A stretch of 64,000 nucleotides of DNA. Source: Peptostreptococcaceae bacterium (GTDB lineage: Bacteria; Bacillota; Clostridia; Peptostreptococcales; Anaerovoracaceae). The stretch's first letter is position 1. The number at the start of each line of letters is the position of its first letter. Positions 1-20,047 of this stretch are shown in pieces. The DNA is taken from NCBI GenBank assembly GCA_016650175.1, contig JAENWG010000002.1, positions 8,214-72,213 of the forward strand. The letters run 5' to 3'. The notes below the pieces were generated by a model. It was not told the DNA's origin, made no database searches, and saw only the letters and a list, made by a program, of their open reading frames with translations. A program made the position numbers and the translations under genes.

Positions 1-1867
1 AGCAAGAAGAACAAACACTGTACTTCAAACTGCTTTCTTTAAATTAGCTAATATAATCCCTATCGACGAAGCTGTAGGTTATCTTAAAGATGCAATCAAG
101 AAAACATATGGTAGAAAAGGCGATAAAATTGTAAACATGAACTGCGAAGCAGTTGATGCAGGTCTTGGTAGTATTCATAAAGTAGTAATTCCTGCTGGTT
201 GGGATAAAGCTACAGATGAAGCTGTAGTTACTAATGTTAAGTACAACAATGCTTTCCAAGAAAAATATATTAAAGATATAATGCTTCCTACAAATTCTAT
301 GGATGGAGATTCAGTTCCTGTTTCAGCATTCTTAGATACACCTGATGGATTACTTCCAGCTGGTACAGCTGCTTTTGAAAAACGTGGTGTTGCAGTAGAA
401 GTTCCAACTTGGCTTCCTGATAATTGTTTACAGTGTAACTGGTGTTCTACTGTATGTCCTCATGCTGCTATTAGACCATTTGTACTTACAGATGAAGAAG
501 CAGATGAAATGGGAGCAGATACAGTTGAATTAAAAGGCGATAAAACTAAGAAATTTACTATAGCTATATCAGCATTAGATTGTACAGGTTGCGGTTCTTG
601 TATCGAAGTATGTCCTGCAAGAAAGAAAGCTTTAGAACCACAACCATTTGGTGAAGTAGTTAAAACTCATCAACCTAAATTTGATTATGCAGTAGCTAAT
701 GTTACTGATAAAGTTTTACCTTTTGATCAATCAACGGTCAAAGGTGCACAATACAAAAAACCACTTCTTGAGTTCTCTGGAGCTTGCCCTGGATGTGGAG
801 AAACACCATATGCTAAACTTGTTACTCAATTATACGGAGATAGAATGTTCATAGCTAATGCTACAGGATGTTCATCAATTTGGGGATGCTCCGCACCTTC
901 AACTCCTTATACTGTAAATAAAGAAGGCAAAGGACCTGCATGGGCTAATTCACTATTTGAAGACAATGCAGAATTTGGTCTTGGTATGGCTGTATCTATG
1001 AAGAATCGTAGAGAAGCTATGCTATCTGTAATAACAAGATTAGCAGAAGATGCTAAATATAAAGAAACAGCTAAAAGATGGATTAAAGGCATGCAAGTAG
1101 CTGAAGAAGCTGAAGATGCTGGAAATCAGTTAGTAGAATTATGTAAAGCTGACAAAGGAAATAAAGATGCTGAATACGTAGTAGAAAATGCTGATATGCT
1201 TACTAAACCATCAATATGGATATTCGGTGGTGACGGATGGGCTTATGACATTGGTTACGGCGGAGTAGATCATGCAATAGCATCAGGCGAAAATGTTAAT
1301 ATCATGGTATTTGACACTGAAGTTTACTCTAATACAGGAGGACAAGCTTCTAAGGCAACTCCAATAGGAGCAGTAGCTAAATTTGCTGCTAATGGTAAGC
1401 CTATCAATAAGAAAAACCTGATTCAGATGGCTATGGCTTACGGTTACGTATATGTAGCACAAATCGCTATAGGTACTAATCCTGATCAATCTTTACAAGC
1501 TATCAGAGAAGCTGAAGCATATGATGGTCCATCACTAATCATAGCCTATGCTCCATGCATTAACCACGGTGTTAAGGCAGGTATGAATAAGTCTATGGAA
1601 GAAATGAAAAAAGCTGTTAGATCAGGTTATTGGAATTTACTAAGATTTAACCCTGAATTGGTTGCTGAAAAGAAAAATCCATTAACTTTAGACAGTCAAG
1701 AACCAACAGAGTCATATAGAGATTTCATCATGGGTGAGGTAAGATACAACTCACTAACTCTTAAGTATCCTGAAAGAGCTAAAAAACTTTTCGCAGAATC
1801 AGAAGACGCTGCTAAAATGAGATATGACGCTTTATTAAGACAACACAAGAGTTATGAACCTAATTAG
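1..1867 (+). CDS. nifJ: Pyruvate:ferredoxin (flavodoxin) oxidoreductase, C-terminal ~620 aa (5' end lies outside the window)
   Basis: The frame is open from the window edge, so the ATG at 137 is internal. Two ferredoxin-type Cys clusters (CLQCNWCSTVCP, CTGCGSCIEVCP). TPP-binding GDGWAYDIG motif. Tail typical of ~1170-aa single-chain PFOR. Confidence 0.9.
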   Translation, partial: ARRTNTVLQTAFFKLANIIPIDEAVGYLKDAIKKTYGRKGDKIVNMNCEAVDAGLGSIHKVVIPAGWDKATDEAVVTNVKYNNAFQEKYIKDIMLPTNSMDGDSVPVSAFLDTPDGLLPAGTAAFEKRGVAVEVPTWLPDNCLQCNWCSTVCPHAAIRPFVLTDEEADEMGADTVELKGDKTKKFTIAISALDCTGCGSCIEVCPARKKALEPQPFGEVVKTHQPKFDYAVANVTDKVLPFDQSTVKGAQYKKPLLEFSGACPGCGETPYAKLVTQLYGDRMFIANATGCSSIWGCSAPSTPYTVNKEGKGPAWANSLFEDNAEFGLGMAVSMKNRREAMLSVITRLAEDAKYKETAKRWIKGMQVAEEAEDAGNQLVELCKADKGNKDAEYVVENADMLTKPSIWIFGGDGWAYDIGYGGVDHAIASGENVNIMVFDTEVYSNTGGQASKATPIGAVAKFAANGKPINKKNLIQMAMAYGYVYVAQIAIGTNPDQSLQAIREAEAYDGPSLIIAYAPCINHGVKAGMNKSMEEMKKAVRSGYWNLLRFNPELVAEKKNPLTLDSQEPTESYRDFIMGEVRYNSLTLKYPERAKKLFAESEDAAKMRYDALLRQHKSYEPN

Positions 1868-1881
1868 GAAGGAGATTACGA

Positions 1882-2730
1882 ATGTTTAAAATTGTAAATA
1901 AAAAACAATTAAGTCATGATATGGTTTGGTTCGATATTGAAGCACCGTTGATTGCAAAAAAAGCTAAGCCTGGTCAATTTGTTATTCTTCGTACTGATGA
2001 ATATGGTGAAAGAATTCCTCTTACTATGGCAGGTCACGATGCAAACAAAGGAACTATAACTATAGTATTCCAAGCAGTAGGAAAATCTACAAAAATCATG
2101 GCAGCTTTAGAAGTAGGCCAAGGATTTGAAGATATAGTAGGGCCTCTTGGAAAGCCAACTGGTACTGAAGGTATTAAAAGAGTATGTGTAGTAGGCGGAG
2201 GTACAGGTAATGCGTTAGCTTATCCAATCGCTACAGGTATGCACGATGCTGGAATAAAAGTTGATATGGTTATGGGATTCAAAAACAAAGAATTAGTAAT
2301 TCTTGAAGAAGAATTCAAAGCAGGAGTGGACAATCTTTACATAACTACAGATGATGGTAGTTATGGTGAAAAAGGATTCACAACTAATAAATTAAAACAA
2401 TTAATTGAAGATGGTAATCAATATGACGAAGTTATAGCAGTTGGACCACCAATCATGATGAAGTTTATCTGCGCAGTAACTAAGGATTACGATATTAAGA
2501 CTGTTGTATCTTTAACAGCTCTTATGATTGACGGCTCAGGAATGTGCGGTTGTTGCCGTGTTACAGTTAATGGAGAAAACAAATATGTATGCATAGATGG
2601 TCCTGAATTTGATGGACAAGGTGTCGATTGGGATAGTGTCATCGCTAGAAATGCTTTCTATTTTGATGAGGAAGAAGATGCTAGACATCACAATTGTCAT
2701 ATAACAGGAGGTGTACGTCAAAATGATTAA
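1882..2730 (+). CDS. nfnA: NfnA-type FAD/[2Fe-2S] subunit (PyrK / sulfide dehydrogenase-like ferredoxin-NADP+ reductase subunit)
   Basis: 282 aa. GGGTGNA nucleotide-binding motif. C-terminal CGCCRV...C [2Fe-2S] pattern. RBS GGAAGGAG upstream. Paired with a GltD-like subunit. Confidence 0.75.
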   Translation: MFKIVNKKQLSHDMVWFDIEAPLIAKKAKPGQFVILRTDEYGERIPLTMAGHDANKGTITIVFQAVGKSTKIMAALEVGQGFEDIVGPLGKPTGTEGIKRVCVVGGGTGNALAYPIATGMHDAGIKVDMVMGFKNKELVILEEEFKAGVDNLYITTDDGSYGEKGFTTNKLKQLIEDGNQYDEVIAVGPPIMMKFICAVTKDYDIKTVVSLTALMIDGSGMCGCCRVTVNGENKYVCIDGPEFDGQGVDWDSVIARNAFYFDEEEDARHHNCHITGGVRQND

Positions 2731-4114
2731 TTTTGTAGAAAATAAAAACCCTATGCCTTCACAAGATCCTAACGTACGTAATAAGAATTTTGTGGAAGTT
2801 ACAAGTGGTTATACGGACAAAATGGCTATAAACGAAGCTATGCGTTGTTTACAGTGTAGAGACAAACCTTGTACAGGTGGATGCCCAGTACTTGTTAAGA
2901 TTCCTGAATTCATAGCTCAAGTAGCTAAAGGCGAATTCGAAGAAGCTTTCCAAATAATAGGTACTACAAATTCGCTTCCTGCTGTATGTGGAAGAGTATG
3001 TCCTCAAGAAAACCAATGTGAAGGTGAATGTGTACGTGGTAAAGACGGCGAACCAGTAGCAATTGGTAGACTTGAAAGATTTGTAGCCGACTGGCATAGA
3101 GACCACTTTGGTGATATTAAAGATCAACCAACCAAAGCTAACGGTCACAAAGCTGCTATTGTAGGTTCTGGCCCTGCCGGACTTGCTTGCGCAGGAGATC
3201 TAATTGTTGAAGGTTACGATGTAACTGTATTTGAAAGTCTTCATAAAGAGGGCGGAGTGCTTGCTTATGGTATCCCTGAATTTCGTCTTCCTAAGAGCAT
3301 TGTTCAAATGGAAGTAGACAAATTAGCTGATAAAGGCGTTAAATTTGTTAAAGATGCAGTTGTTGGTAAGATTTTTTCTGTAGATGAGCTTCTTAACGAA
3401 GGTTATGAATCAGTATTTGTAGGTACAGGCGCAGGCCTTCCTAGATTTATGAATATGCCTGGTGAAAACTTACTTGGAGTATATTCAGCTAATGAATACT
3501 TAACTCGTATTAATCTTATGAAAGCATATAAAGCTGAATATGATACACCTATTAAGGTTAATAAAAATGTAGCCGTAATCGGTGGTGGTAACGTAGCTAT
3601 GGATTCAGCACGTTGTGCTAAACGTATGGGTGCAGAAAATGTTTATATAGTATATAGACGTTCAATGGATGAAATTCCTGCACGTAAGGAAGAAATTGAG
3701 CATGCTATTGAAGAAGGAATAATCTTCAAGCTATTAAACAATCCTGTACAAGTAATAGGTGATGACAAAAAGTACGTAACTGGCCTTGAATGCGTAGAGA
3801 TGGAACTTGGCGAACCTGATGCTTCAGGTAGACGTCGTCCTATCGAAAAGAAGGGTTCAAATTTCGTATTAGATGTTGATGCTGTAATAGTATCTATCGG
3901 TACAAACCTTAACAAACTTATATTAGAAACTACTGAAAATTTAGAGGCTAATAAAAATGGTGGTATAGGTGCGTCTGATGATGACGGAGTTACATCAAAT
4001 CCAGCAGTATTTGCTGGTGGAGATGCCGTAACAGGTGCTGCTACTGTAATACTTGCAATGGGAGCAGGAAAGAAAGCTGCCGCAGGTATGATTTCATACA
4101 TGGAAAACAAATAA
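2723..4114 (+). CDS. nfnB: NfnB / GltD-like NADPH-dependent oxidoreductase beta subunit
   Basis: N-terminal Cys clusters (CLQCRDKPC, CPQENQCEGEC). Two Rossmann motifs (GSGPAGLA, GGGNVAMD). The ATG at 2723 sits behind AGGAGG and overlaps the nfnA stop; the ORF track starts earlier, at GTG 2711. Confidence 0.75.
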   Translation: MINFVENKNPMPSQDPNVRNKNFVEVTSGYTDKMAINEAMRCLQCRDKPCTGGCPVLVKIPEFIAQVAKGEFEEAFQIIGTTNSLPAVCGRVCPQENQCEGECVRGKDGEPVAIGRLERFVADWHRDHFGDIKDQPTKANGHKAAIVGSGPAGLACAGDLIVEGYDVTVFESLHKEGGVLAYGIPEFRLPKSIVQMEVDKLADKGVKFVKDAVVGKIFSVDELLNEGYESVFVGTGAGLPRFMNMPGENLLGVYSANEYLTRINLMKAYKAEYDTPIKVNKNVAVIGGGNVAMDSARCAKRMGAENVYIVYRRSMDEIPARKEEIEHAIEEGIIFKLLNNPVQVIGDDKKYVTGLECVEMELGEPDASGRRRPIEKKGSNFVLDVDAVIVSIGTNLNKLILETTENLEANKNGGIGASDDDGVTSNPAVFAGGDAVTGAATVILAMGAGKKAAAGMISYMENK

Positions 4115-4126
4115 ATAAAGCTTAAA

Positions 4127-4157
4127 CAAAAGAGAGCAATTAATTTTGCTCTCTTTT
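4127..4157 (+). terminator. Rho-independent terminator after nfnB
   Basis: AAAAGAGAGCAA-TTAATT-TTGCTCTCTTTT hairpin followed by T-rich tail. Confidence 0.6.
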
Positions 4158-4196
4158 ATGTTGTCTACAACTGAAATAATGAAAATTCAAAAAAAC

Positions 4197-4227
4197 AAAA
4201 AGAGAGCAATTACTTTGCTCTCTTTTT
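4197..4227 (-). terminator. Rho-independent terminator of the sel operon (near-copy of the 4127-4157 hairpin)
   Basis: AGAGAGCAA / TTGCTCTCT stem begins 2 nt after the selenoprotein stop codon. On the minus strand it is followed by TTTTTGTTTTTTTG. Confidence 0.6.
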
Positions 4228-4228
4228 G

Positions 4229-4555
4229 TTATCTACAACTTCCGCCAGGTCCGCCTTCGACACCAACACCATCAACAAACAGTGTAGTGCTCCAGAAAAA
4301 CTTGCTTAAGTTGAATTTAACGTCTTCTCCGTAAGCATAAACTCTTTTATCAAAATAGACTTTACCTAACTCAGAATCAACTTTTTTAAATGAATTTGTT
4401 TTTAAAACCTTAATATCTTCTTCGCTTGCAAACCTTGCAAGTACCTGTGAAATAGGGCCCCCTCAGCCTTGTGACTGAGCAACGGCAACGATGATATTAG
4501 GTGTTTCTTTTTCATTCATATAATCTTTAACGTCTTGACTTAAAATTATATTCAT
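4229..4555 (-). CDS. Small selenoprotein (108 aa, Sec31), IscA/HesB-like; absent from the ORF track because of an in-frame UGA
   Basis: ATG at 4555-4553 preceded by GGAGGT. Translation: MNIILSQDVKDYMNEKETPNIIVAVAQSQG-U-GGPISQVLARF...GGPGGSCR*. The TGA at 4465-4463 is in frame. A hairpin lies 21 nt downstream. The gene sits directly after selB. The G-U-G-G context resembles the GCSG cluster-ligand motif of IscA/HesB. Confidence 0.7.
4425..4441 (-). promoter_or_regulatory. Candidate bacterial SECIS hairpin for the small selenoprotein
   Basis: mRNA CUUGCAA-GGU-UUGCAAG: 7-bp perfect stem with a G-containing apical loop, starting 21 nt 3' of the UGA. Confidence 0.45.
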
Positions 4556-4622
4556 TAAATTACCTCCATACTCTTATTTGTCTCTATTATAACAATAACT
4601 CTTATATATGTATGTGACTATA

Positions 4623-6476
4623 TCACACAAAATATCTTAAATTTTCCACTTTGTAAGTAATGTTTTTAGCATCGAATGCATCAAGTATTAATAAAGCGTT
4701 TTTTCTTGAAGTGTTTAATTCATCTCTAAAGTCTCCAAGTGATACTCCACCTTTTTGAGATAGTTTTCTAAATAAATCAATTGCTTTATCGAAGTTTGAT
4801 TTACTTATGTATAAATCGTTTCCAAGCCTTATTAAAGCACCTTTTTTTTCAAGGTAGATTAAATAATCTTTGTTATCTTTAGTTGTATTGACAGAAAACT
4901 TTTGATCATCAATTGCTTTTAAAACATCATCTAATTTACTTTGATCTACTTTTACGCTGTGGCCTGGCAAATTCAGATAAACATCATTTGTTACAATTAC
5001 CTTTTTGCTTATTAATATTTTAATTATTTCATCAACGACTTTACTGTTTTCTATATTAAGCTTGTTGGATATTTTACTGTTAAGTTCTTTAATTTTAATA
5101 CCAAGGCTTAAGGTATTGTTGTTTTGATTTTCTTTAAATATTTCAACAATTTTAGTGCTTAAATTATTAAGTCTGTCTTCTGATACCACGCATTCACCAA
5201 CAAATATTACTTTCTTATCATCTATTAGCTCTTTTAGAAGTTCATCAGTGCCATCACCAATTATTCTTTTTAAACTTGTTAATTCAGGAAATCTGCTTTG
5301 TCCATATTCAATTAACGAAAGCAGGGCTTCGGTTTCACTGTTAGAATCAAGCAATTTAAAAGCTTCTATTGATTCTTCTTTTTGTCTTTTATGCTTTTTA
5401 GGCTTAGGATTTAATACTAATCCGCCGCCAAAAGTTTCAAGAGGTGAGAAGAACCTAATAATAAACGGATCGTTTCTTTTAAGTGCTATTTCTTCTTCAA
5501 GTCTTAGTTGAGCATAAGCTTTCTGACCAGCTCTAATTTCGTCTGTACCAATTAAAACGACTTTAGCTATCATTTCCTTAGACCCTACATAAAAATGTAT
5601 TCTATCATTGTTTTTGAGCCTTCTCTTGGTGTTTTCGAACAGGGTTATGGAAACATCTACTATCATAGAAGTCTCCATTGCATTTGGCATCGCAAGTACA
5701 TCGCCTCTTGATATATCTTCTTTTTTTAAGTTTGTAAGATTAATAGCAGTTCTTTGACCTGCCGATGCAGAATTTACATCTTTGTCATGCACCTGAAGAT
5801 TCCTTACTTTAGCTTTAAGCATAGAAGGGTAGAGCACGATTTCATCTCCTGTGCTTAAGCTACCTTCAATCATAGTACCTGTAACTACAGTACCAAAACC
5901 CTTAATTGAAAAGATTCTATCTATAGGCATTCTGAACATTTTTTTATCAGTATTTTTATTACCTATTTCTTTAGCTTTACTTAAAATTTCTTGTTTAAGA
6001 TAATCTATATTTTCCATTGTTTTAGATGAAACTTTAATTATTTCAGTTTCTTCTAAAAAGGTGCCTTTAATTAAAGTATTTATATCATCTTCTACTAAGC
6101 TAAGCATTTCTTCATCAACAGAATCAATTTTGGTAATAACTGGTATACCTTTAGTAATACCTAGACTTTTAACTATATCAAAATGTTCTACAGTTTGAGG
6201 CATTACACCTTCATCTGCTGCTACTACAAGAAGCACTATATCAATGCCTTGCGCGCCTGCTAACATATTTTTAATGAATTTTTCATGACCCGGTACATCA
6301 ATTATCCCTATATCAAGGTTTTCATCATTCGGCATATATGTAAAACCAAGCTCAATTGTAATTCCTCTTCTTTTTTCTTCAATTAGTCTGTCAGTATCCG
6401 TACCTGTTAATGCTTTAATAAGCCAAGTTTTACCGTGATCTACATGGCCGGCTGTTCCAACTACAACATTTTTCAT
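4623..6476 (-). CDS. selB: Selenocysteine-specific translation elongation factor SelB
   Basis: N-terminal GTPase (GHVDHGKT, DVPGHEKF, TKID), EF-Tu-like domains II/III, and a long winged-helix C-terminal extension. Adjacent to selA. Confidence 0.9.
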   Translation of the reverse strand: MKNVVVGTAGHVDHGKTWLIKALTGTDTDRLIEEKRRGITIELGFTYMPNDENLDIGIIDVPGHEKFIKNMLAGAQGIDIVLLVVAADEGVMPQTVEHFDIVKSLGITKGIPVITKIDSVDEEMLSLVEDDINTLIKGTFLEETEIIKVSSKTMENIDYLKQEILSKAKEIGNKNTDKKMFRMPIDRIFSIKGFGTVVTGTMIEGSLSTGDEIVLYPSMLKAKVRNLQVHDKDVNSASAGQRTAINLTNLKKEDISRGDVLAMPNAMETSMIVDVSITLFENTKRRLKNNDRIHFYVGSKEMIAKVVLIGTDEIRAGQKAYAQLRLEEEIALKRNDPFIIRFFSPLETFGGGLVLNPKPKKHKRQKEESIEAFKLLDSNSETEALLSLIEYGQSRFPELTSLKRIIGDGTDELLKELIDDKKVIFVGECVVSEDRLNNLSTKIVEIFKENQNNNTLSLGIKIKELNSKISNKLNIENSKVVDEIIKILISKKVIVTNDVYLNLPGHSVKVDQSKLDDVLKAIDDQKFSVNTTKDNKDYLIYLEKKGALIRLGNDLYISKSNFDKAIDLFRKLSQKGGVSLGDFRDELNTSRKNALLILDAFDAKNITYKVENLRYFV

Positions 6477-6477
6477 T

Positions 6478-7869
6478 TTATAGCTCCTTTATTGCTTTAG
6501 CTATAACTTCTATTTCATCATCGCCAACTGTTCTTAATACAAATATTATTTTATCTTTATATATTCTGCATATAATTGGTGTTTTTGAATTTCTAAGTTT
6601 TCTTTCTAATTTTTCTGAAGTTAACGTCTTATGGCTAATACTTACTCCGTATCCATCTAAGTATGTAGTAGGGGCGGAGCCACCACCAATTTGATCCTTA
6701 GTTTCTACAACTTCAGCTTTAATATCGCAAATTTCATTTAATTCTTCAGATAACTTTTCTGCTTTCTTTTTTATTGTCTCAGGAAGAGATGTTATCATTT
6801 TAAGAGTAGGGATTTCAACCAAAGCTTTATCTTCATCCAAATAGGTTCTTAGTGTTACTTCTAAAGAGGCGAGAGTCATCTTATCTACTCTTAAAGCTCT
6901 TGCTAAAGGATGTCTTTTTAATTTATCGATGTAATTAGACTTACCTATGATTATTCCGCACTGTGGGCCTCCTAAGAGCTTATCACCACTAAAGAGGGCT
7001 ACATCTATACCGCTTTTTACTGCATCAAGTACAGTTGGTTCTGATACACCGTATTTAGTAAGATTTACCATAAGACCACTTCCCATGTCATAAATTACAG
7101 GAAGGGATTTTTCATAACCTAATTTTACCAATTCGTCTAAGCTAACATCTTCTGTAAAGCCAACGATTTTATAGTTACTGGTATGAACCTTCATAAGCGC
7201 AGCTGTTTTTTCATCATCAATAGCCATTTCATAATCAGAAAGTTTTGTCTTATTTGTAGCTCCGACTTCTTTTAACGAGCATCCGCTTTGCATCATTATA
7301 TCTGGTATTCTAAACGAACCTCCGATTTCTACAAGCTCTCCACGAGAAACTATCATTTCTTTTCCATATCCCATAGCAGACAAAGTAAGCATGGTAGCTG
7401 CTGCATTGTTGTTAACTACCATTGCAGCTTCAACTCCAGTAAGCTTCTTTAAGATATATTCTACATGTGTATGACGAAGTCCACGACCACCTTTAGCTAA
7501 ATCATATTCTAGATTTGAATAGGATGTAGCAGAAAGTACGGCAGCTTTTGAAGCCTCATCACTTAGTTTAGATCTACCTAAATTAGTATGAATCACAGTA
7601 CCTGTAGCATTTATTACTTCTCTCATACTAAGTTTCTTTTTCTTTTCGATTCTATTTACTATATCAGCTAAAAGCAAATTGTAATCTAAAGTGTAATTAT
7701 CATCCGCTTTAGATACTTGGGTTCTTAATTCTGATATACATTCTCTAATTGAATCCATTACCAATACTTTTGGCATTTCTTCTAAATACACAAAAAGGCA
7801 TTGCTCTTGCAATACCTCATCTATTTTAGGAATTTTCCTCATCATTTCATTATTCATACTTTCCTCCAA
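6478..7869 (-). CDS. selA: L-seryl-tRNA(Sec) selenium transferase SelA
   Basis: 463 aa. Typical N-terminal KIPKIDEVL. NATGTVIHTNLGRS motif. PLP-lysine region FSGDKLLGGPQ. Confidence 0.9.
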   Translation of the reverse strand: MEESMNNEMMRKIPKIDEVLQEQCLFVYLEEMPKVLVMDSIRECISELRTQVSKADDNYTLDYNLLLADIVNRIEKKKKLSMREVINATGTVIHTNLGRSKLSDEASKAAVLSATSYSNLEYDLAKGGRGLRHTHVEYILKKLTGVEAAMVVNNNAAATMLTLSAMGYGKEMIVSRGELVEIGGSFRIPDIMMQSGCSLKEVGATNKTKLSDYEMAIDDEKTAALMKVHTSNYKIVGFTEDVSLDELVKLGYEKSLPVIYDMGSGLMVNLTKYGVSEPTVLDAVKSGIDVALFSGDKLLGGPQCGIIIGKSNYIDKLKRHPLARALRVDKMTLASLEVTLRTYLDEDKALVEIPTLKMITSLPETIKKKAEKLSEELNEICDIKAEVVETKDQIGGGSAPTTYLDGYGVSISHKTLTSEKLERKLRNSKTPIICRIYKDKIIFVLRTVGDDEIEVIAKAIKEL

Positions 7870-7878
7870 TTAATTAAA

Positions 7879-7975
7879 TGGCGGAAGCATGTGGGAATTG
7901 AACCCACCTAGGAAGCTCTTAACTCCCCAAACCGGTTTTGAAGACCGGAGGGCACACCAGCACCCATCTGCTTCC
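7879..7975 (-). tRNA. selC: tRNA-Sec (anticodon UCA), CCA encoded
   Basis: Minus-strand sequence: GGAAGCAGATGGGTGCTGGTGTGCCCTCCGGTCTTCAAAACCGGTTTGGGGAGTTAAGAGCTTCCTAGGTGGGTTCAATTCCCACATGCTTCCGCCA. Anticodon loop is CT-TCA-AA between CCGGT/ACCGG. Long variable arm and extended acceptor stem. Lies between selD and selA. Confidence 0.85.
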
Positions 7976-7985
7976 AAATTAATTC

Positions 7986-9026
7986 TTAATCTTTTATATG
8001 TATTGTTGTGTTATCGCGTTTCTTTACCTGACCTACAATTTTAGCACATTCTATGCTTTGATTAAGGTCGCTTATTAATTTTAGGGCTTCTTTTTCAGGA
8101 AGTGAAATAAGTAAACCTCCTGCAGTTTCAGGATTAAAAAATACGTTTAACTGATTATCTGATATTTTAGTATCTATTGAAATATCAGCACCAACGTAGC
8201 TCTTATTTCTAAGAGTTCCTCCTGGAATTATGCCAGGCAATGCCATTTCAACTGCTCCATCTAGCATTGGTACTTTGCTTTTGAAAATATCTATAGATTT
8301 TTCGCTACCAATTGCCATTTCATAAAGGTGACCCAGTAGGCCAAATCCTGTAATATCAGTACAACTATTAACTTTATATCTACTCATTATTTCATAAGCA
8401 TATTTATTTAAAGTTACCATATATTCTATAGCCTTATCTGTAGCTATTTTAGGTATATGGCCACCTTTAAATGCGTTGTTTATTATTCCATTACCGATAG
8501 GTTTCGTAAGAATCAGTAAATCGCCTTCTTGAGCATTATCATTTCTAAGAATCTGATTGATATCAGCTATTCCAGTTACTGCAAGTCCATATTTGGGCTC
8601 ATTATCATTTAAAGTATGACCTCCAGCAATTATTGCTCCTGCTTCTAATACTTTTTCATATCCACCTTCTAAAATACTTCTTACATATTCTAAGTTCATA
8701 TCAGAAGGGAAGGCTAAAATATTCATGCAAAGATTAGGGCTAGCACCCATAGCATATATATCACTTAGGGAATTACTTGCCGCTATCTGACCGAAAAGAT
8801 AGGGATCATCTACCATAGGAGGAAATAAATCCACCGATTGTACCATAACTTTCTTTTCGTCTATCTTATATACTGCTGCGTCATCGCTGCTGCCGTAACC
8901 TACGAGTAGGTTAGTGGTATCTCCCATAGGAAGACCACATAAAATCTGTGAAAGGACACCCGGTCCTACCTTAGCTGCTCAGCCACCACTTGTAGTTAGT
9001 TTTGTAAGTTTAAGTTCTTCTGTCAT
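7986..9026 (-). CDS. selD: Selenide, water dikinase SelD, selenocysteine-containing form (Sec16); the ORF track shows only 7986-8927
   Basis: Upstream extension MTEELKLTKLTTSGG-U-AAKVGPGVLSQILCGLP is in frame with the tracked ORF, with the TGA at 8981-8979. This replaces the catalytic Cys of the SGG(C/U)xxK motif. ATG at 9026-9024 is preceded by AGGAGGT. Confidence 0.85.
8953..8967 (-). promoter_or_regulatory. Candidate SECIS hairpin for selD
   Basis: mRNA AGGAC-CGGGU-GUCCU starts 11 nt after the UGA. The stem is only 5 bp, so this is tentative. Confidence 0.4.
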
Positions 9027-9234
9027 ATAAACCTCCTATGTTGATTGCTTATAGTTATTACCACTATTATATACTATTCAAACATTATTTCAATATTAAT
9101 AGGGGAATTAGAAAAAACAGCTAGTAATATGAAAATGGTAATATATAACATATTATTATGTAGAAATGAACAATTATTTACATTGTTAATTAATATGGCT
9201 GGCTTATAATAAAAATGAAAGTAGAGGTAATAGT

Positions 9235-9963: not shown

Positions 9964-11223
9964 ATGGATGGTTTAAAGATGGAAACAATTAGACCTATTA
10001 AAGAAATTCTAGATTTAGATATGTTGCAAAGAATCCAAGATGAGTTTGCTGAAGCTACAGGTATGGGCTTTGTAACTGTGGATTATCAAGGGACACCAAT
10101 TATAAAACCTAGCGGTTTTACTGATTTTTGTAAACTTGTTAGAAAAAAAAGCAATTTATGCCAGACGTGTGATGCACATGCTGGTTTACGTGCTAAAATC
10201 GAAGGAAAACCAACTATCTATAGATGTCATACCGGATTAGTAGATTTTGCAGTACCTCTATGTGTCAACGGAGATTATTGTGGAGCACTTTTAGGAGGGC
10301 AGATATTTTGTTCTGAGAAAAATTCAGTAGATATTAAAGAAAAATTAATCGAAGAAAAGACTGATTGGGAAGCATACACTGATTTATGTATAGCTAGAAA
10401 ACAAATCAAAACTATTCCAATCTCTAGAATCAAAGCATATCTTAAGGTAATTCAAACTACAATAGAATATCTTTTAAATGAAAGCTATAACAATGTCATA
10501 ATAGATGAAATTATATTGAAAAATAATATAATTCTTGGAGAAAAAGAAAAAATAGCTGATTTAGAATTGGGATTTAATGAACTTAAAGAGCAGTCAGGTT
10601 TGTTAGTTTTAGAAAACAGCAATATACTAAATTATCTCAGTGTAATATCAGACATTGCGTATTTGGAAAATGCACAGCAAACTCAAGATTCTTTATATTT
10701 ATTATCACATCTACTTAGGCATTATTACAAAAAAAACGAAGAGAATGTTATCAATATTAATAATCAAATGGACTATATAAAGTCATATTTAGCTATGGAA
10801 AAAATTCGTATTGGGGATAAACTAAAGTATTCAATAAGCGATTATGAAGATTATAAAGATATCAATCTTCCTTTAAATATCGTGAGACCAATAATAGAAA
10901 ATGCAATTAAATATACTATAGAACCATTTGATGATGGTGGTGAAATAAATATATCATTTACTAGCGATAGTGAGCATTTATTTATTGCAATTACTGATAC
11001 AGGGCAAGGCTTTCCAAATGATGTAATTGATAATATCATGAATGATGAAAATGTCATTCTTGGTGGTAAAAATAGATATGAATTATTTAGAATAAACAAA
11101 CTGCTTATGTTTATTTATGGTAAAAACTATAAGCTTAATATATCAAATAACAAAAATGGTGTAGGCGCTACTGTAGTAATTATGCTACCTTTAAACAATT
11201 GGGATGGAGGTGGAAATGAATAA
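9964..11223 (+). CDS. Cytoplasmic sensor histidine kinase with N-terminal PocR ligand-sensing domain (YesM/LytS-type kinase core)
   Basis: PocR-type motifs (FCKLVRKK...CQTCDAHAG...YRCHTGLVDFAVPL...GALLGGQ). His-kinase region and HATPase (NAIKYT, TDTGQGF) follow. No TM segment. Confidence 0.8.
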   Translation: MDGLKMETIRPIKEILDLDMLQRIQDEFAEATGMGFVTVDYQGTPIIKPSGFTDFCKLVRKKSNLCQTCDAHAGLRAKIEGKPTIYRCHTGLVDFAVPLCVNGDYCGALLGGQIFCSEKNSVDIKEKLIEEKTDWEAYTDLCIARKQIKTIPISRIKAYLKVIQTTIEYLLNESYNNVIIDEIILKNNIILGEKEKIADLELGFNELKEQSGLLVLENSNILNYLSVISDIAYLENAQQTQDSLYLLSHLLRHYYKKNEENVININNQMDYIKSYLAMEKIRIGDKLKYSISDYEDYKDINLPLNIVRPIIENAIKYTIEPFDDGGEINISFTSDSEHLFIAITDTGQGFPNDVIDNIMNDENVILGGKNRYELFRINKLLMFIYGKNYKLNISNNKNGVGATVVIMLPLNNWDGGGNE

Positions 11224-12269
11224 TGTGTGATATTATGATAATGGACAGTAATATAATAAAAAGACAAGTTGTAAGCCAGGTATTAACTAAGGAATTTAAT
11301 AGTGTTAATTATGTTCATGGTGTTGAAAATATTAAAAATGCAGAGAATTTACTCAAAAATAGAAATATCGATTTGATGATTATTGACATAGATGGAAATA
11401 GCTCAGTATCATCCTTTATTAATAAAGCTAAAAAAGTTAACCCTGATCTCGCAACTATATTAACTACTGTAAAAAGCGAAACCGAAGCTATTATAGCTAA
11501 TGTAAGACTTAATGCTGATGATTATTTATTGAAGCCATACTCACCACAAGAAATGATTAATACTGTAGAACGCTATGTATTTGAAATTGATAAGCGCATA
11601 CATGATAATCAAAGGAATCGAGTACATATTGAAACTATAGAAAAAGCAAAACAGGAAATGGAAAGCTTTATGTATAAGGAATGTAGAGATTCTTGTATTG
11701 AATATATTAATCTAATATATGACAGTAACAGTAGTACCTCAATTATTATCGATAAATTATGTGAGTTTATAAAAAGTCTAGTAACATTATTTGGAGAAGG
11801 CGATTTACTACTGCCACTAAACATTGCCACAGCTATTGGTGAAATTCGGTATGAAATGGATAAGTATGAAGATAGAGTCAAATCATATGAATTGGTATTC
11901 GATGTAACTCGTGCATTCTTTATTGATTACGAAAAAAAGCATACGTATTACGATGAAATTAAAAAAGCAGTGAATTACATTAACTTGAATATTACTTCAG
12001 AGATTACTCTTGATAGAGTAGCTGATCATGTAAATGTCAGTAAGTACTACTTCAGTAAGCTCTTCAAGAAGAAAATGAACACAAATTTTATTTCATATGT
12101 CATAGACGAAAAGATGGAAGTTGCAAAAACATTGCTTGAATATACTGATGTACCTGTTTCTGAAATAGCTAGTAAACTATCTTATGATGAAACGAATTAT
12201 TTTAGCAAAGCTTTTAAAAAAACAGTTGGTATAACTCCAAGTGCTTATAGGAAAAGTGCAAAATATTAA
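11223..12269 (+). CDS. Response regulator with C-terminal AraC-type HTH (YesN-like)
   Basis: Receiver domain (DLMIIDID, LKPY) plus AraC HTH (VSKYYFSKLFKK...SYDETNYFSKAFKKTVGITPSAYR). Start overlaps the kinase stop. Confidence 0.8.
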   Translation: MCDIMIMDSNIIKRQVVSQVLTKEFNSVNYVHGVENIKNAENLLKNRNIDLMIIDIDGNSSVSSFINKAKKVNPDLATILTTVKSETEAIIANVRLNADDYLLKPYSPQEMINTVERYVFEIDKRIHDNQRNRVHIETIEKAKQEMESFMYKECRDSCIEYINLIYDSNSSTSIIIDKLCEFIKSLVTLFGEGDLLLPLNIATAIGEIRYEMDKYEDRVKSYELVFDVTRAFFIDYEKKHTYYDEIKKAVNYINLNITSEITLDRVADHVNVSKYYFSKLFKKKMNTNFISYVIDEKMEVAKTLLEYTDVPVSEIASKLSYDETNYFSKAFKKTVGITPSAYRKSAKY

Positions 12270-19399: not shown

Positions 19400-20047
19400 A
19401 TGGAAGTAAAAAGTCTGGGATTGATTGAAACTGTAGGCATGGTAGCTGCAATTGCAGCCGCTGATAGCGCAGTTAAATCTGCCAACGTTAAGCTTGTTGG
19501 GTTTGAGCTAACTGAAGGTGGTGGAATGGTAACAATCAAGGTTGAAGGAGATGTTGGTGCAGTTAAAGCGGCTATTGACGCTGCATCTATGACTGCTAAA
19601 CAGGTAGGAACTTTAGTAAGTGCTCATGTTATACCTAGACCATCTGATTCTACTAATCTTTTAGTAGATAATGAGAAAACTGCAGGTTGCAAAGGTGTTA
19701 AACCTGAAGAATTAATGAAGGGCTATATAAAACCTGAAAAAGCAAAGAAGGTAGATATTAGTACTTCACAAAAGTCTAAACCTAAAGTTACTAAAACCAG
19801 AACAATCAAACCAAATAACGACAGTAAGAAAAAAGTTGATACAACTAAACCCGAGGCAAAAAAAACAGTAAACGTAGAGACTGAAAAAGCAAAACCAACT
19901 ACTATAAAACCAAAAGCAGTTGATAGTAAAAAAGAGGTTAATACAATTAAGCTCGAAGCAACAAAACCAGTAAATGTAGTAATTGAAAATATAAATCCAG
20001 CTACTATAAAACCTGGAACAGTTGATAAGAAAAAAACTACTAAGTAG
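19400..20047 (+). CDS. pduK: BMC-H shell protein with long Lys/Thr/Pro-rich repetitive C-terminal tail (PduK-like by position)
   Basis: BMC domain SLGLIETVGMVAAIAAADSAVKSANV...HVIPRP followed by a ~130-aa tail. The ATG at 19400 follows GAAGGAGA; the ORF track starts at 19385. Confidence 0.7.
   Translation: MEVKSLGLIETVGMVAAIAAADSAVKSANVKLVGFELTEGGGMVTIKVEGDVGAVKAAIDAASMTAKQVGTLVSAHVIPRPSDSTNLLVDNEKTAGCKGVKPEELMKGYIKPEKAKKVDISTSQKSKPKVTKTRTIKPNNDSKKKVDTTKPEAKKTVNVETEKAKPTTIKPKAVDSKKEVNTIKLEATKPVNVVIENINPATIKPGTVDKKKTTK
19796..20044 (+). repeat. In-frame tandem repeat (about 2.4 x 34 aa) inside the PduK-like tail
   Basis: TRTIKPNNDSKKKVDTTKPEAKKTVNVETEKAKP / TTIKPKAVDSKKEVNTIKLEATKPVNVVIENINP / ATIKPGTVDKKKTTK. 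Confidence 0.6.

What the first reader, a model, noticed from the sequence alone, without database searches (positions are those of the whole stretch)
4229..4555. Unannotated 108-aa selenoprotein (G-U-G-G, IscA/HesB-like) as the last gene of the selD-selC-selA-selB operon
Seen directly:
- A minus-strand reading frame with a strong RBS (GGAGGT) and an ATG at 4555 is interrupted only by one in-frame TGA (4465-4463). It then continues for 77 more codons to a TAA abutting a terminator.
- A perfect 7-bp hairpin with a GGU loop starts 21 nt after the TGA.
- The gene sits 67 nt downstream of selB.
- The ORF track shows nothing here apart from a spurious plus-strand ORF.

Inference: the N-terminal beta-strand pattern (IIVAVAQSQG-U-GG) resembles the GCSG cluster-ligand loop of A-type Fe-S carriers, which suggests a HesB-like selenoprotein. 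Co-transcription of a selenoprotein with its own insertion machinery is notable.
Basis: partly seen in the sequence, partly recalled or inferred. Interest (0 to 1): 0.7.

Follow-up and report, generated by a model that had tools for sequence, protein, structure and literature searches.

The report
Missed selenoprotein gene next to selB
A real 108-residue selenocysteine protein gene, missed by standard gene callers because its UGA reads as a stop, sits just after the selenocysteine-insertion genes; it is a divergent member of a known small selenoprotein family with an IscA/HesB-like fold.

Summary
On the minus strand there is a GGAGGT ribosome-binding site, an ATG at 4555, one in-frame TGA at 4465-4463, 77 further open codons, a TAA at 4231-4229 and a terminator.

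The TGA very likely encodes selenocysteine (not shown experimentally):
- Every relative I could read (about six distinct sequences, 63-93% identical) keeps the TGA.
- dN/dS downstream of the TGA is 0.02-0.2.
- A 7-bp hairpin with a GGU loop lies 28 nt after the UGA. It meets the published bacterial SECIS model and shows compensatory changes in 5 of 8 pairs across the family.
- More distant homologues have Cys at that position.
- selD (itself Sec-containing), tRNA-Sec, selA and selB lie directly upstream.

The closest curated family is the known "CC/Se motif" selenoprotein family (NF041239/PF28096), not the classic HesB-like families, which it does not match by HMM. However, two AlphaFold models hit only IscA/SufA/HesB structures, and profile comparison aligns the Sec columns.

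This selB-linked clade replaces the family's CxxU motif with S-x-G-U-G-G-P and adds a C-terminal Cys tail, which is the HesB-like layout. Function is unknown. Co-transcription with selB is unproven, and a conserved promoter-like spacer exists. I rate it a new variant of a known kind, of moderate interest.

The parts
4229..4555 (-). Coding sequence of a 108-residue selenoprotein (ATG 4555-4553, Sec-UGA as codon 31, TAA 4231-4229). Sequence: MNIILSQDVKDYMNEKETPNIIVAVAQSQG-U-GGPISQV...GGPGGSCR
   Evidence: Full-length homologues of 63-93% identity all keep the TGA. dN/dS over codons 32-100 is 0.02-0.2. NF041239 matches end to end at 31.2 bits.
4463..4465 (-). In-frame UGA read as selenocysteine (residue 31), in the turn between predicted strands beta2 and beta3
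   Evidence: TGA is present at the same codon in every subfamily locus fetched (L001-L011 and L018-L020, about five distinct sequences besides the window; L021 is the same contig as L001) and in the distant members L016, L017, L022, L023 and L025. Cys occupies this column in the Cys-form homologues P0011, P0030, P0042 and P0055. Secondary structure.
4425..4441 (-). bSECIS core hairpin CUUGCAA-GGU-UUGCAAG (stem 4441-4435 paired with 4431-4425, loop 4434-4432). The loop begins 28 nt after the UGA.
   Evidence: It meets the bSECIS model constraints quoted in PMC13188914. On alignment A5, 91.7% of cells are paired, 5 of 8 pairs show compensatory changes, 0 of 500 shuffles reach the observed values, and slid controls give 15-44% paired.
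4562..4567 (-). Shine-Dalgarno sequence GGAGGT, 6 nt upstream of the ATG
   Evidence: (A/G)GGAGGTA is conserved in all homologous loci.
4194..4230 (-). Intrinsic terminator (16-pair stem, T-run) that overlaps the TAA stop
   Evidence: Equivalent hairpins followed by T-runs occur after the gene in L009, L010 and L011.
4586..4594 (-). Putative extended -10 element TGTTATAAT in the selB-gene spacer. A possible own promoter (inferred, not shown).
   Evidence: TG-n-TATAAT or TATAGT sits at the same place in L009 and L010, and TATAAT in L005, L011 and L020. The L010 spacer passes the promoter scan as CTTACA-16-TATAAT with TG. The window spacer does not pass the two-hexamer scan.
4613..4627 (.). Conserved palindrome TGTGATATAGTCACA that overlaps the selB TGA stop codon. 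It could be an operator or an RNA hairpin; its function is unknown.
   Evidence: the only match in the window. ATGTGA-N5-TCAC(A/T)T is conserved in the spacers of L005, L009, L010, L011 and L020.
4623..6476 (-). selB, the Sec-specific elongation factor
   Evidence: TIGR00475 at 360.5 bits; Pfam SelB beta-barrel and winged-helix domains.
6478..7869 (-). selA, selenocysteine synthase
   Evidence: TIGR00474 at 590.9 bits.
7879..7975 (-). selC, tRNA-Sec (anticodon UCA)
   Evidence: ARAGORN. Rfam RF01852 at 76.7 bits, E = 4e-15.
7986..9026 (-). selD, selenophosphate synthetase. It is itself a selenoprotein (UGA 8981-8979, codon 16, motif GG-U-AAK) with a SECIS-like hairpin AGGAC-CGGGU-GUCCU.
   Evidence: TIGR00476 at 330.9 bits for the part after the UGA. 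Read-through translation. Fold.
9066..9093 (-). Best promoter-like site of the cluster (TTGAAA-16-TATAAT, 11 of 12 matches), upstream of selD
   Evidence: This is a consensus match only.

Best explanation
Window 4555-4229 (minus strand) is a genuine, normally missed selenoprotein gene.

**How the UGA is decoded.** During translation, SelB carrying Sec-tRNA(Sec) binds a small coding-region SECIS hairpin (7 bp, GGU loop, 28 nt downstream). It inserts selenocysteine at UGA codon 31, and the ribosome then completes a 108-residue protein.

**What the protein is.** Its nearest curated family is the 'CC/Se motif' small selenoprotein family (NCBIfam NF041239, Pfam PF28096), although the window protein scores below the NCBIfam cut-off. 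That family adopts the alpha/beta fold of A-type Fe-S carriers (IscA/SufA/HesB).
- Sec31 sits in the beta2-beta3 turn. This is the position of the first cluster-ligand Cys of IscA (GCSG) and of Sec in the classic HesB-like selenoproteins (G-U-G-G-P).
- In this selB-linked clade, the family's usual partner Cys (CxxU or CC) has been replaced by an invariant Ser.
- A flexible Gly-rich C-terminal tail ending in an invariant Cys (Cys107) has been added.

**Inferred mechanism.** Sec31 and Cys107 form the reactive centre. They could act as a selenenylsulfide redox couple, or as Se/S ligands that hold a metal, an Fe-S cluster or a selenium species at a dimer interface, as Cys35 and Cys99/101 do in IscA. 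The invariable position just after selD-selC-selA-selB suggests a role tied to selenium handling. That role is inferred, not shown.

**Transcription.** It may come by read-through from the sel cluster, from a conserved promoter-like element in the 67-nt spacer, or from both.
For: **Shown directly or by computation**
- Anatomy: RBS, ATG, a single TGA, 77 open codons with no internal start, TAA and a terminator.
- TGA conservation: the TGA is at codon 31 in all subfamily loci fetched (L001-L011, L018-L020), from three MAGs labelled Clostridiales, Oscillospiraceae and Anaerovoracaceae.
- Purifying selection: dN/dS over codons 32-100 is 0.02-0.2, as low as or lower than upstream of the TGA.
- SECIS model: the hairpin has a 3-nt loop starting with GG, a 7-bp stem and 28-nt spacing, and the context folds at -8.6 to -9.7 kcal/mol. 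These meet the constraints quoted.
- SECIS covariation: 5 of 8 pairs change on both sides and 91.7% of cells are paired, against 15-44% in slid controls; 0 of 500 shuffles reach this.
- Controls on the hairpin: it is absent from a Cys-form gene and decayed in a TGG variant.
- Cys/Sec pairing: the column holds Cys in Cys-form relatives.
- Genetic code: TGA is an ordinary stop in the window, ending 7 of 36 long frames including selB. This rules out code 4 or 25.
- Sec machinery: selD with its own Sec codon, tRNA-Sec, selA and selB are adjacent.
- Family: NF041239 aligns end to end at 31.2 bits. Homologues carry precomputed PF28096 CC_Se_fam. 17 of 48 relatives hit NF041239.
- Fold: model 1 (85% identical homologue) has pLDDT 83 and pTM 0.70. 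Model 2 (a canonical CxxU member) has pLDDT 95 and pTM 0.85. For both, the top 8 PDB hits are all IscA/SufA/HesB proteins, with probability up to 1.0 and TM up to 0.56, followed by a sharp drop.
- Profile comparison: hhalign against published HesB-like selenoproteins gives 72.7% probability and E = 3e-5, with G-U-G-G-P in register. That set aligns its Sec with the IscA GCSG Cys and its C-terminal Cys with the IscA C-terminal Cys.
- Synteny: the gene follows selB in all 3 genome loci and in every metagenome contig long enough to show the neighbour.
Against: - No experimental evidence for Sec insertion exists.
- The hairpin is thermodynamically unremarkable in its context (z about +1).
- No Rfam family matched it.
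- The window protein scores below the NF041239 curated cut-off (31.2 against 40 bits). It lacks the family's name-giving CxxU/CC motif.
- The Foldseek E-values are modest (3e-3 to 6e-2, none at or below 1e-3) and TM is only 0.33-0.56. The link to A-type carriers is therefore remote homology or fold similarity, not established descent.
- The C-terminal tail is modelled at pLDDT below 50, so contact between Sec31 and Cys107 is not shown.
- Wider family members are not linked to selB: they lie next to a POR gamma-subunit gene or an HTH regulator gene. A selenium-pathway role is thus specific to this clade at best.
- The covariation set is small: 9 sequences, some of them closely related.
Confidence: 0.85

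Rival explanations
1. The TGA is a true stop. The locus would encode only a 30-residue peptide, or be a decayed pseudogene, and the open frame behind the TGA would be chance or a relic.
For: Standard ORF calling gives only the 30-aa fragment. Public records annotate only fragments (30, 46 and 51 aa, labelled 'hypothetical protein'). The hairpin is no more stable than shuffled sequence in its context.
Against: - The 77 downstream codons are under strong purifying selection, with dN/dS 0.02-0.2 and dS up to above 1.
- They have no usable internal start.
- They contain the most conserved block of the protein, FNLSKFFWSTTLFVDGVGVE, which is invariant.
- The TGA is kept in every relative read (about six distinct subfamily sequences and four distinct distant members), and Cys takes its place in others.
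- The hairpin covaries.
Confidence: 0.03
2. It is an ordinary member of the classic HesB-like selenoprotein family (TIGR01911 / NF038090 / Pfam Fe-S_biosyn). That would make it a bona fide A-type Fe-S carrier with Sec in place of the first ligand Cys, working in Fe-S cluster transfer. Its position next to selB would be incidental.
For: - It shares the G-U-G-G-P motif, length, N-terminal helix and strand, and Gly-rich tail ending in Cys with the published HesB-like selenoproteins.
- Fold hits are to IscA/SufA only.
- hhalign gives 73% probability in register.
- One relative weakly hits NF038090 (E = 0.0095).
Against: - The window protein gives no hit at E <= 1 to PF01521, TIGR01911, NF038090 or TIGR00049. 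The published HesB-like selenoproteins hit all four of these models, though often below the curated cut-offs.
- Its only family match is NF041239.
- It has a single C-terminal Cys instead of the CxC or multi-Cys tails of A-type carriers.
- The selB linkage is conserved across three MAGs with different taxonomic labels, which argues against an incidental position.
Confidence: 0.07
3. It is a thiol/selenol oxidoreductase of general redox function, like most CxxU selenoproteins. Under this reading the IscA-like fold has no functional meaning and there is no connection to selenium metabolism.
For: Most members of the wider family carry CxxU/CxxC or UC/CC motifs. The 2026 review lists the family motif as CxxU and notes that such motifs usually mark redox proteins (PMC13188914). 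Wider family members are not selB-linked.
Against: This clade has lost the CxxU partner Cys (Ser28 is invariant) and relies on a distant tail Cys. The fold is not thioredoxin-like. The selB linkage is strictly conserved in this clade.
Confidence: 0.2

Closest known systems
CC/Se motif family (seleno)protein (NCBIfam NF041239 'Moor_selen_rel'; Pfam PF28096 CC_Se_fam). [quoted passage not shown]
   Same: - About 100 residues, with an end-to-end HMM alignment (1-97 against 1-91 of 91).
- Sec or Cys at about residue 31, at the end of strand beta2.
- The ARFA motif follows, and the SECIS hairpin is built on its codons.
- Same predicted fold.
   Different: - The score is below the curated cut-off (31.2 against 40 bits).
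- The CxxU/CC partner Cys is replaced by an invariant Ser, giving S-x-G-U-G-G-P.
- There is an extra tail of about 10 residues, rich in Gly/Ser and ending in an invariant Cys.
- The gene is strictly linked to selB, whereas the three other family-member contexts examined lie elsewhere.
HesB-like selenoproteins (Kryukov and Gladyshev family; TIGR01911 HesB_rel_seleno, NF038090 IscA_HesB_Se; motif UxGP). Sequences taken from PMC1794560, supplementary file 4.
   Same: - G-U-G-G-P motif at about residue 31, following a strand.
- N-terminal helix.
- Gly-rich C-terminal tail with Cys.
- IscA-like fold.
- hhalign gives 73% probability with the Sec columns aligned.
   Different: - No HMM hit at E <= 1 to TIGR01911, NF038090 or PF01521.
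- The middle of the protein (ARFA, ELGKVY, FNLSKFFW) is unrelated in sequence.
- The tail has a single Cys.
A-type Fe-S carriers IscA/SufA/ErpA (PDB 1r94, 1s98, 2d2a, 1x0g; Pfam PF01521)
   Same: They are the only credible structural neighbours of both models. Sec31 occupies the turn that holds the first ligand Cys (the GCSG Cys). The C-terminal tail Cys corresponds in position to the first C-terminal ligand Cys.
   Different: Sequence identity is 6-15% and TM 0.33-0.56. There is no C-terminal CGC motif. Sec takes the place of Cys. Nothing is known about Fe or Fe-S binding.
Selenoprotein genes embedded in or flanking sel gene clusters: Sec-containing selD, and fdhA next to selA-selB-selC (Zhang et al. 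2006, PMC1794560)
   Same: A selenoprotein gene lies physically next to its own insertion machinery. selD in this very cluster is one such gene.
   Different: Those partners have known functions (selenophosphate synthesis, formate oxidation). This small protein has none. I did not find the linkage described in the papers I could search.

Membership tests
Bacterial selenoprotein gene (Sec-UGA plus bSECIS) | An in-frame UGA followed by an open, conserved reading frame in the same frame | tested here: met
   77 open codons follow the UGA. dN/dS is 0.02-0.2 downstream. A block of 20 residues is invariant.
Bacterial selenoprotein gene (Sec-UGA plus bSECIS) | bSECIS model: 3-9-nt apical loop, 4-16-bp stem, G in the first two loop positions (G[G|U]), 16-37 nt between the UGA and the loop, and MFE <= -7.5 kcal/mol (PMC13188914) | tested here: met
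   The loop is GGU, the stem 7 bp and the spacing 28 nt. The 61-66-nt context folds at -8.6 to -9.7 kcal/mol, and the hairpin alone at -6.7. Covariation occurs in 5 of 8 pairs. bSECISearch itself was not run.
Bacterial selenoprotein gene (Sec-UGA plus bSECIS) | UGA-containing orthologues exist, and homologues have Cys aligned with the UGA | tested here: met
   TGA is present in all subfamily loci and in five loci of distant members. Cys occupies the column in P0011, P0030, P0042 and P0055, among others.
Bacterial selenoprotein gene (Sec-UGA plus bSECIS) | The genome encodes SelA, SelB, SelC and SelD | tested here: met
Bacterial selenoprotein gene (Sec-UGA plus bSECIS) | Selenium is incorporated into the protein | not testable with these tools
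   This needs 75Se labelling or mass spectrometry.
CC/Se motif family (NF041239 / PF28096) | HMM score at or above the curated cut-off (40 bits for NF041239) | tested here: not met
   31.2 bits with U replaced by C (E = 1.7e-7, full-length alignment). P0001 scores 23.2 bits. PF28096 is absent from the local Pfam copy. It is recorded as a precomputed hit on the homologues P0001, P0003, P0004 and P0005, weak at one locus.
CC/Se motif family (NF041239 / PF28096) | CxxU/CxxC or CC/UC motif near residue 30 | tested here: not met
   The window clade has S-x-G-U-G-G, with Ser28 invariant and no Cys within 20 residues. Wider members show CxxU, CxxC, UC or CC.
CC/Se motif family (NF041239 / PF28096) | Homology over the whole length to family members | tested here: met
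   A profile of the clade retrieves 47 proteins at E <= 1e-3, aligned across residues 1-97. 17 of 48 aligned sequences (which include three from the window clade) hit NF041239, best E = 6e-14.
HesB-like selenoprotein (TIGR01911 / NF038090) | HMM match | tested here: not met
   No hit at E <= 1. Published members score 30-99 bits on TIGR01911, with only one of four above its cut-off, and 36-66 bits on NF038090, all below its cut-off.
HesB-like selenoprotein (TIGR01911 / NF038090) | UxGP motif after a beta strand, and a C-terminal Cys | tested here: met
   The motif is G-U-G-G-P, and the protein ends in GGPGGSCR.
A-type Fe-S carrier (IscA/SufA/ErpA, Pfam PF01521) | Pfam Fe-S_biosyn HMM match | tested here: not met
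   No hit at E <= 1. No PDB sequence hit to IscA with the family profile.
A-type Fe-S carrier (IscA/SufA/ErpA, Pfam PF01521) | IscA fold | tested here: met
   For two models, the top 8 Foldseek hits are all A-type carriers, with probability 0.57-1.0 and TM 0.33-0.56. The E-values are modest, so the match is remote.
A-type Fe-S carrier (IscA/SufA/ErpA, Pfam PF01521) | Three ligand cysteines (one central Cys plus a C-terminal C-x-C) | tested here: not met
   Only Sec31 and Cys107 are present; there is no CxC.
A-type Fe-S carrier (IscA/SufA/ErpA, Pfam PF01521) | Binds and transfers Fe or an Fe-S cluster | not testable with these tools
   This needs biochemistry.

The most novel reading that the evidence does not exclude
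The selB-linked clade may be a dedicated accessory factor of the selenocysteine pathway, in effect a fifth sel gene. It would be an IscA-fold selenium carrier that uses Sec31 and the tail Cys107 to hold or deliver reduced selenium to SelD, or to keep the Sec residue of SelD reduced. It would be expressed from its own promoter under a conserved palindromic operator that overlaps the selB stop codon. It would also be an example of a CxxU redox protein re-engineered into the HesB-like layout of a loop Sec plus a tail Cys.
Probability: 0.15. Interest if true: 0.7.

Novelty: new variant of a known kind. Interest (0 to 1): 0.42.

Why it matters
**Annotation.** The gene is missed or truncated in public records. 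GenBank holds only 46-51-aa 'hypothetical' fragments. Metagenome catalogues carry it with a false Trp, because some gene callers used code 4. The curated NCBIfam model scores it below cut-off. Lowering that cut-off, or adding a sub-model, would recover this clade.

**Biology.** Three points follow.
- The CC/Se motif selenoprotein family, whose function is unknown, appears to have the A-type Fe-S carrier fold. I did not find this link stated in the papers I could search.
- One clade has moved its partner cysteine from the CxxU motif to a flexible C-terminal tail, reproducing the architecture of HesB-like selenoproteins.
- That clade is always placed right after selD-selC-selA-selB. This gives a concrete, testable candidate for an unrecognised helper in selenium handling in anaerobic Firmicutes.

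If the position turns out to be incidental, the finding remains a correct but ordinary selenoprotein annotation.

Tried and rejected
- **Rfam.** A scan of 4100-9200 at E <= 10 found tRNA-Sec but no SECIS family. The other hits were spurious microRNA/snoRNA matches to the terminator hairpins.
- **Local Pfam.** It lacks PF28096, so Pfam membership of the window protein could not be scored directly.
- **PDB sequence search.** The family profile found nothing meaningful; the best hit was eS28 at E = 0.017. Only fold comparison showed the link to IscA.
- **Representatives search.** I reran it with database homologues only.
- **The search for related loci.** The diverse alignment had no conserved stretch to search with. 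With the close alignment, the genome scan gave only 3 loci and the metagenome scan only 4, one of them a duplicate. The clade is therefore rare in those collections.
- **Genetic code 4 or 25.** Rejected, because TGA ends 7 of 36 long frames, including selB.
- **Other selenoprotein genes in the window.** A crude scan for further TGA read-through plus hairpin candidates gave one other hit, TGA at 19626 (minus strand). I rejected it because it lies antisense to a 220-aa plus-strand ORF.
- **Palindrome.** It has no other copy in the window, so no regulon could be inferred.
- **Literature.** PMC2398784 and PMC5029168 contain no text on the Moorella family. PMC12013261 (Haft and Tolstoy 2025) is not held.
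- **Organism.** The organism of the window was not identified. The nearest genome locus is a Clostridiales MAG, with 85% protein identity.
Full report
**1. Observation**

The minus strand of 4555-4229 reads MNIILSQDVKDYMNEKETPNIIVAVAQSQG*GGPISQVLARFASEEDIKVLKTNSFKKVDSELGKVYFDKRVYAYGEDVKFNLSKFFWSTTLFVDGVGVEGGPGGSCR*.

- GGAGGT lies at 4567-4562, six nt before the ATG at 4555.
- The only internal stop is TGA at 4465-4463 (codon 31). TAA is at 4231-4229.
- A 16-pair terminator with a T-run spans 4230-4194.
- The hairpin CTTGCAA-GGT-TTGCAAG occupies 4441-4425 and starts 21 nt after the TGA.
- selB ends at 4623, 67 nt upstream of the ATG.
- Mechanical ORF listing gives only the 30-aa N-terminal piece and unrelated short ORFs. 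The 77 downstream codons have no in-frame start that would give 20 aa or more.
- At 32% GC, such an open stretch has P about 0.002 from base composition.

**2. Is the UGA decoded?**

*Homologues keep the TGA.* A protein search with U replaced by C found five clusters of 63-93% identity. They are recorded with 'W' at position 31. Their DNA shows TGA in every case, so these genes were called with a TGA=Trp code. Three genome loci and three further metagenome loci also have TGA at codon 31. The genome loci come from MAGs labelled Clostridiales, Oscillospiraceae and Anaerovoracaceae.

*The downstream frame is under selection.* The residues after the TGA are the best conserved part of the protein; FNLSKFFWSTTLFVDGVGVE is invariant. 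dN/dS for codons 32-100 is 0.02-0.2, with dS up to above 1. That is as low as or lower than for codons 1-30.

*The genetic code is standard.* TGA is an ordinary stop elsewhere in the window. It ends 7 of 36 long frames, including selB.

*The Sec machinery is adjacent*:

| Gene | Coordinates (minus strand) | Evidence |
|---|---|---|
| selD | 9026-7986 | Own Sec codon at 8981-8979 (GG-U-AAK) and a small SECIS-like hairpin |
| tRNA-Sec | 7975-7879 | Rfam 76.7 bits |
| selA | 7869-6478 | TIGR00474 |
| selB | 6476-4623 | TIGR00475 |

**3. The SECIS element**

The published bacterial model requires four things (PMC13188914):
- a 4-16-bp stem;
- 16-37 nt between the UGA and the loop;
- MFE <= -7.5 kcal/mol.

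The window element has a GGU loop, a 7-bp stem and 28-nt spacing. The UGA-plus-60-nt context folds at -8.6 to -9.7 kcal/mol.

Stability alone is not significant. The hairpin by itself has z = -1.8, and its context has z about +1. The decisive evidence is comparative.

- The hairpin sits at the same codon register in distant family members of about 25% protein identity, but with different stem sequences. Examples are AUCGGCAA-GUU-UUGCCGAU in L016, GUUGGUAA-GUU-UUACCGAC in L022 and CAGCAA-GUU-UUGCUG in L023.
- On a codon-anchored alignment of 9 distinct sequences, 91.7% of cells pair and 5 of 8 pairs carry changes on both sides.
- No shuffle out of 500 reaches the observed pairing or covariation. 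Slid controls pair at only 15-44%.
- A Cys-form gene (TGC, L012) has no such hairpin.
- One variant with TGG instead of TGA (L024) has lost the loop G and one stem pair.

**4. What family is it?**

*Curated models.* NCBIfam NF041239, 'CC/Se motif family (seleno)protein', aligns end to end at 31.2 bits, below its 40-bit cut-off. The close homologues carry a precomputed Pfam PF28096 CC_Se_fam hit. My local Pfam copy lacks that model.

*Wider family.* A profile search of 1.8 billion representatives found 47 relatives. Of the 48 aligned sequences, 17 hit NF041239.
- At the Sec column they show 'W' or Cys. The 'W' is TGA in four of the five distinct wider-family sequences whose DNA was read, and TGG in the fifth (L024, see section 3).
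- The motif is usually CxxU/CxxC (for example C-N-T-U-G-G or C-S-S-C-S-G) or UC/CC.
- Several 62-67-aa and 30-aa entries are code-11 truncations at the TGA.
- The 2026 review lists this family as a known selenoprotein family of unknown function with motif CxxU.

*How the window clade differs.* The Cys three residues before Sec is an invariant Ser, giving S-x-G-U-G-G-P. The protein also carries an extra Gly/Ser-rich tail ending in an invariant Cys (GGPGGSCR), which the wider family lacks.

**5. Is it IscA/HesB-like?**

*Against membership.* The window protein has no hit at E <= 1 to Pfam Fe-S_biosyn, TIGR01911, NF038090 or TIGR00049. Four published HesB-like selenoproteins, taken from supplementary file 4 of PMC1794560, hit all of those models, though often below the curated cut-offs. 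It is therefore not a member of those families.

*For relatedness.*
- The published HesB-like selenoproteins have the same layout: G-U-G-G-P at about residue 31 and a Gly-rich tail ending in Cys.
- hhalign of the 48-sequence family alignment against 10 of them gives 72.7% probability and E = 3e-5 over 84 columns, with G-U-G-G-P in register. With only the five close sequences the probability was 26.7%.
- An AlphaFold model of the 85%-identical homologue (pLDDT 83, pTM 0.70) has, as its top eight PDB neighbours, only IscA, SufA, HI1723 and AQ_1857. Probabilities are 0.57-1.0 and TM 0.33-0.51. Everything below has probability under 0.25.
- A second model, of a canonical CxxU member (pLDDT 95, pTM 0.85), gives the same eight neighbours at probability 0.97-1.0 and TM 0.44-0.56. 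Its ninth hit is chain B of an ODPA-YNER integrative model (9a4q). From my own knowledge, not tested here, YneR is a HesB-family protein of Bacillus subtilis.
- The HesB-like selenoprotein profile hits the same PDB chains by sequence (E = 2e-16 to 8e-8). Its Sec aligns with the IscA GCSG Cys and its tail Cys with the first C-terminal ligand Cys.

In the models, Sec31 lies in the turn between strands 21-30 and 33-42, and the tail is disordered. It does not hold for curated family membership.

**6. Genomic context and expression**

*Synteny.* The order selD, tRNA-Sec, selA, selB, then this gene is conserved in all three genome loci. selB precedes the gene in every metagenome contig long enough to show it. 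Downstream neighbours vary: an Fe-ADH gene in some loci, and convergent NfnAB-like and PFOR genes in the window and in L009.

*Wider family.* Other members are not selB-linked. A Cys form overlaps the stop of a POR gamma-subunit gene, and two Sec forms follow an HTH regulator gene.

*Transcription.* No terminator separates selB from the gene, so read-through transcription is plausible. The spacer nevertheless holds three conserved elements in order:
- a palindrome ATGTGA-N5-TCAC(A/T)T that overlaps the selB stop (window 4627-4613);
- a weak -35-like element;
- a TG-n-TATAAT extended -10 (window 4594-4586).

In L010 this passes the promoter scan. In the window it does not. Co-transcription is therefore unproven, and an independent, possibly regulated, promoter is a real possibility.

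**7. Mechanism**

*Shown by computation:* UGA recoding signals, family, fold and conserved residues.

*Inferred:* Sec31 and Cys107 form the reactive centre. They could work as a selenenylsulfide couple, or as Se/S ligands for a metal, an Fe-S cluster or selenium at a dimer interface, by analogy with the IscA ligand cysteines.

*Speculative:* a role in selenium handling for the Sec pathway, suggested only by the conserved linkage.

**8. Novelty and score**

The gene is a correct catch of an unannotated selenoprotein. GenBank homologues are annotated only as 46-51-aa fragments. The family is already curated and reviewed, and a selenoprotein next to sel genes has precedent. selD in this same cluster is one example. 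fdhA next to selABC is another (PMC1794560).

Three things appear not to be described in the literature I could search:
- the A-type-carrier fold of the CC/Se family;
- the motif change in this clade, from CxxU to S-x-G-U plus a tail Cys;
- the strict linkage of this clade to selB.

I rate it a new variant of a known kind, with interest about 0.4.

Noticed in passing
window 4613-4627 (palindrome) and 4586-4594 (TGTTATAAT); L005, L009, L010, L011 and L020 spacers: A conserved palindrome, ATGTGA-N5-TCAC(A/T)T, overlaps the selB TGA stop codon. It is followed by a weak -35-like element and an extended -10. This looks like an operator plus promoter, or an RNA hairpin at the 3' end of selB. It is the only copy in the window.
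   Followed up: partly
window 7795-7818 (minus strand); L010 4800-4825: A terminator-like hairpin, GAGGTATTGC-AAGA-GCAATGCCTT followed by a T-rich run, lies inside the 5' coding region of selA, about 60-80 nt after tRNA-Sec. It is conserved in the Oscillospiraceae locus. It could be a tRNA-Sec terminator or attenuator, a SelB-binding regulatory hairpin, or simply conserved coding sequence.
   Followed up: no
window 7986-9026 (minus strand): selD is itself a selenoprotein. The ATG is at 9026 and the UGA at 8981-8979 (codon 16, motif SGG-U-AAK), followed by the hairpin AGGAC-CGGGU-GUCCU. Plain ORF listing shows only the 313-aa part after the UGA.
   Followed up: yes
window 4128-4157 (+) and 4194-4230 (-): Two nearly identical hairpins (AAAAGAGAGCAA...TTGCTCTCTTTT) sit back to back between the selenoprotein gene and the convergent NfnB/GltA-like gene. 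They are probably convergent terminators. They also attract spurious Rfam microRNA and snoRNA hits.
   Followed up: partly
L024 730-1035 (protein P0049): A CC/Se family member has TGG (Trp) where its close relatives have TGA. Its hairpin has lost the loop G (AGU to AUU) and one stem pair. This could be decay after loss of Sec, or a sequencing error in a low-coverage contig.
   Followed up: partly
L012-L015 (protein P0055); window 137-4114: A Cys-form family member overlaps by 4 nt the end of a gene carrying the Pfam POR domain (pyruvate/2-oxoacid:ferredoxin oxidoreductase gamma). In the window, and apparently in L009 and L010 (judged there only from matching ORF sizes of 1175, 282-284 and 468-470 aa), a PFOR gene and an NfnAB-like pair lie convergent to the selenoprotein gene. 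This may be a recurring association with ferredoxin-linked oxidoreductases.
   Followed up: no
proteins P0001-P0005, P0026/P0027, P0062, P0065: Public protein catalogues hold these selenoproteins in two wrong forms. One is full length with a false Trp at the Sec position, from genes called with a TGA=Trp code. The other is 30-, 46- or 51-aa fragments, for example GenBank NLY81440.1 and HKK95230.1, labelled 'hypothetical protein'. P0027 is identical to the 30-aa N-terminal fragment of the window gene.
   Followed up: yes
window 9964-12269 (+): Divergent from selD lie a PocR-domain sensor histidine kinase and a response regulator with an AraC-type output domain (the PocR-like model NF047788 splits over the two proteins). 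The pairing with the sel cluster looks conserved in L009 and L010, judged from ORF sizes only.
   Followed up: no
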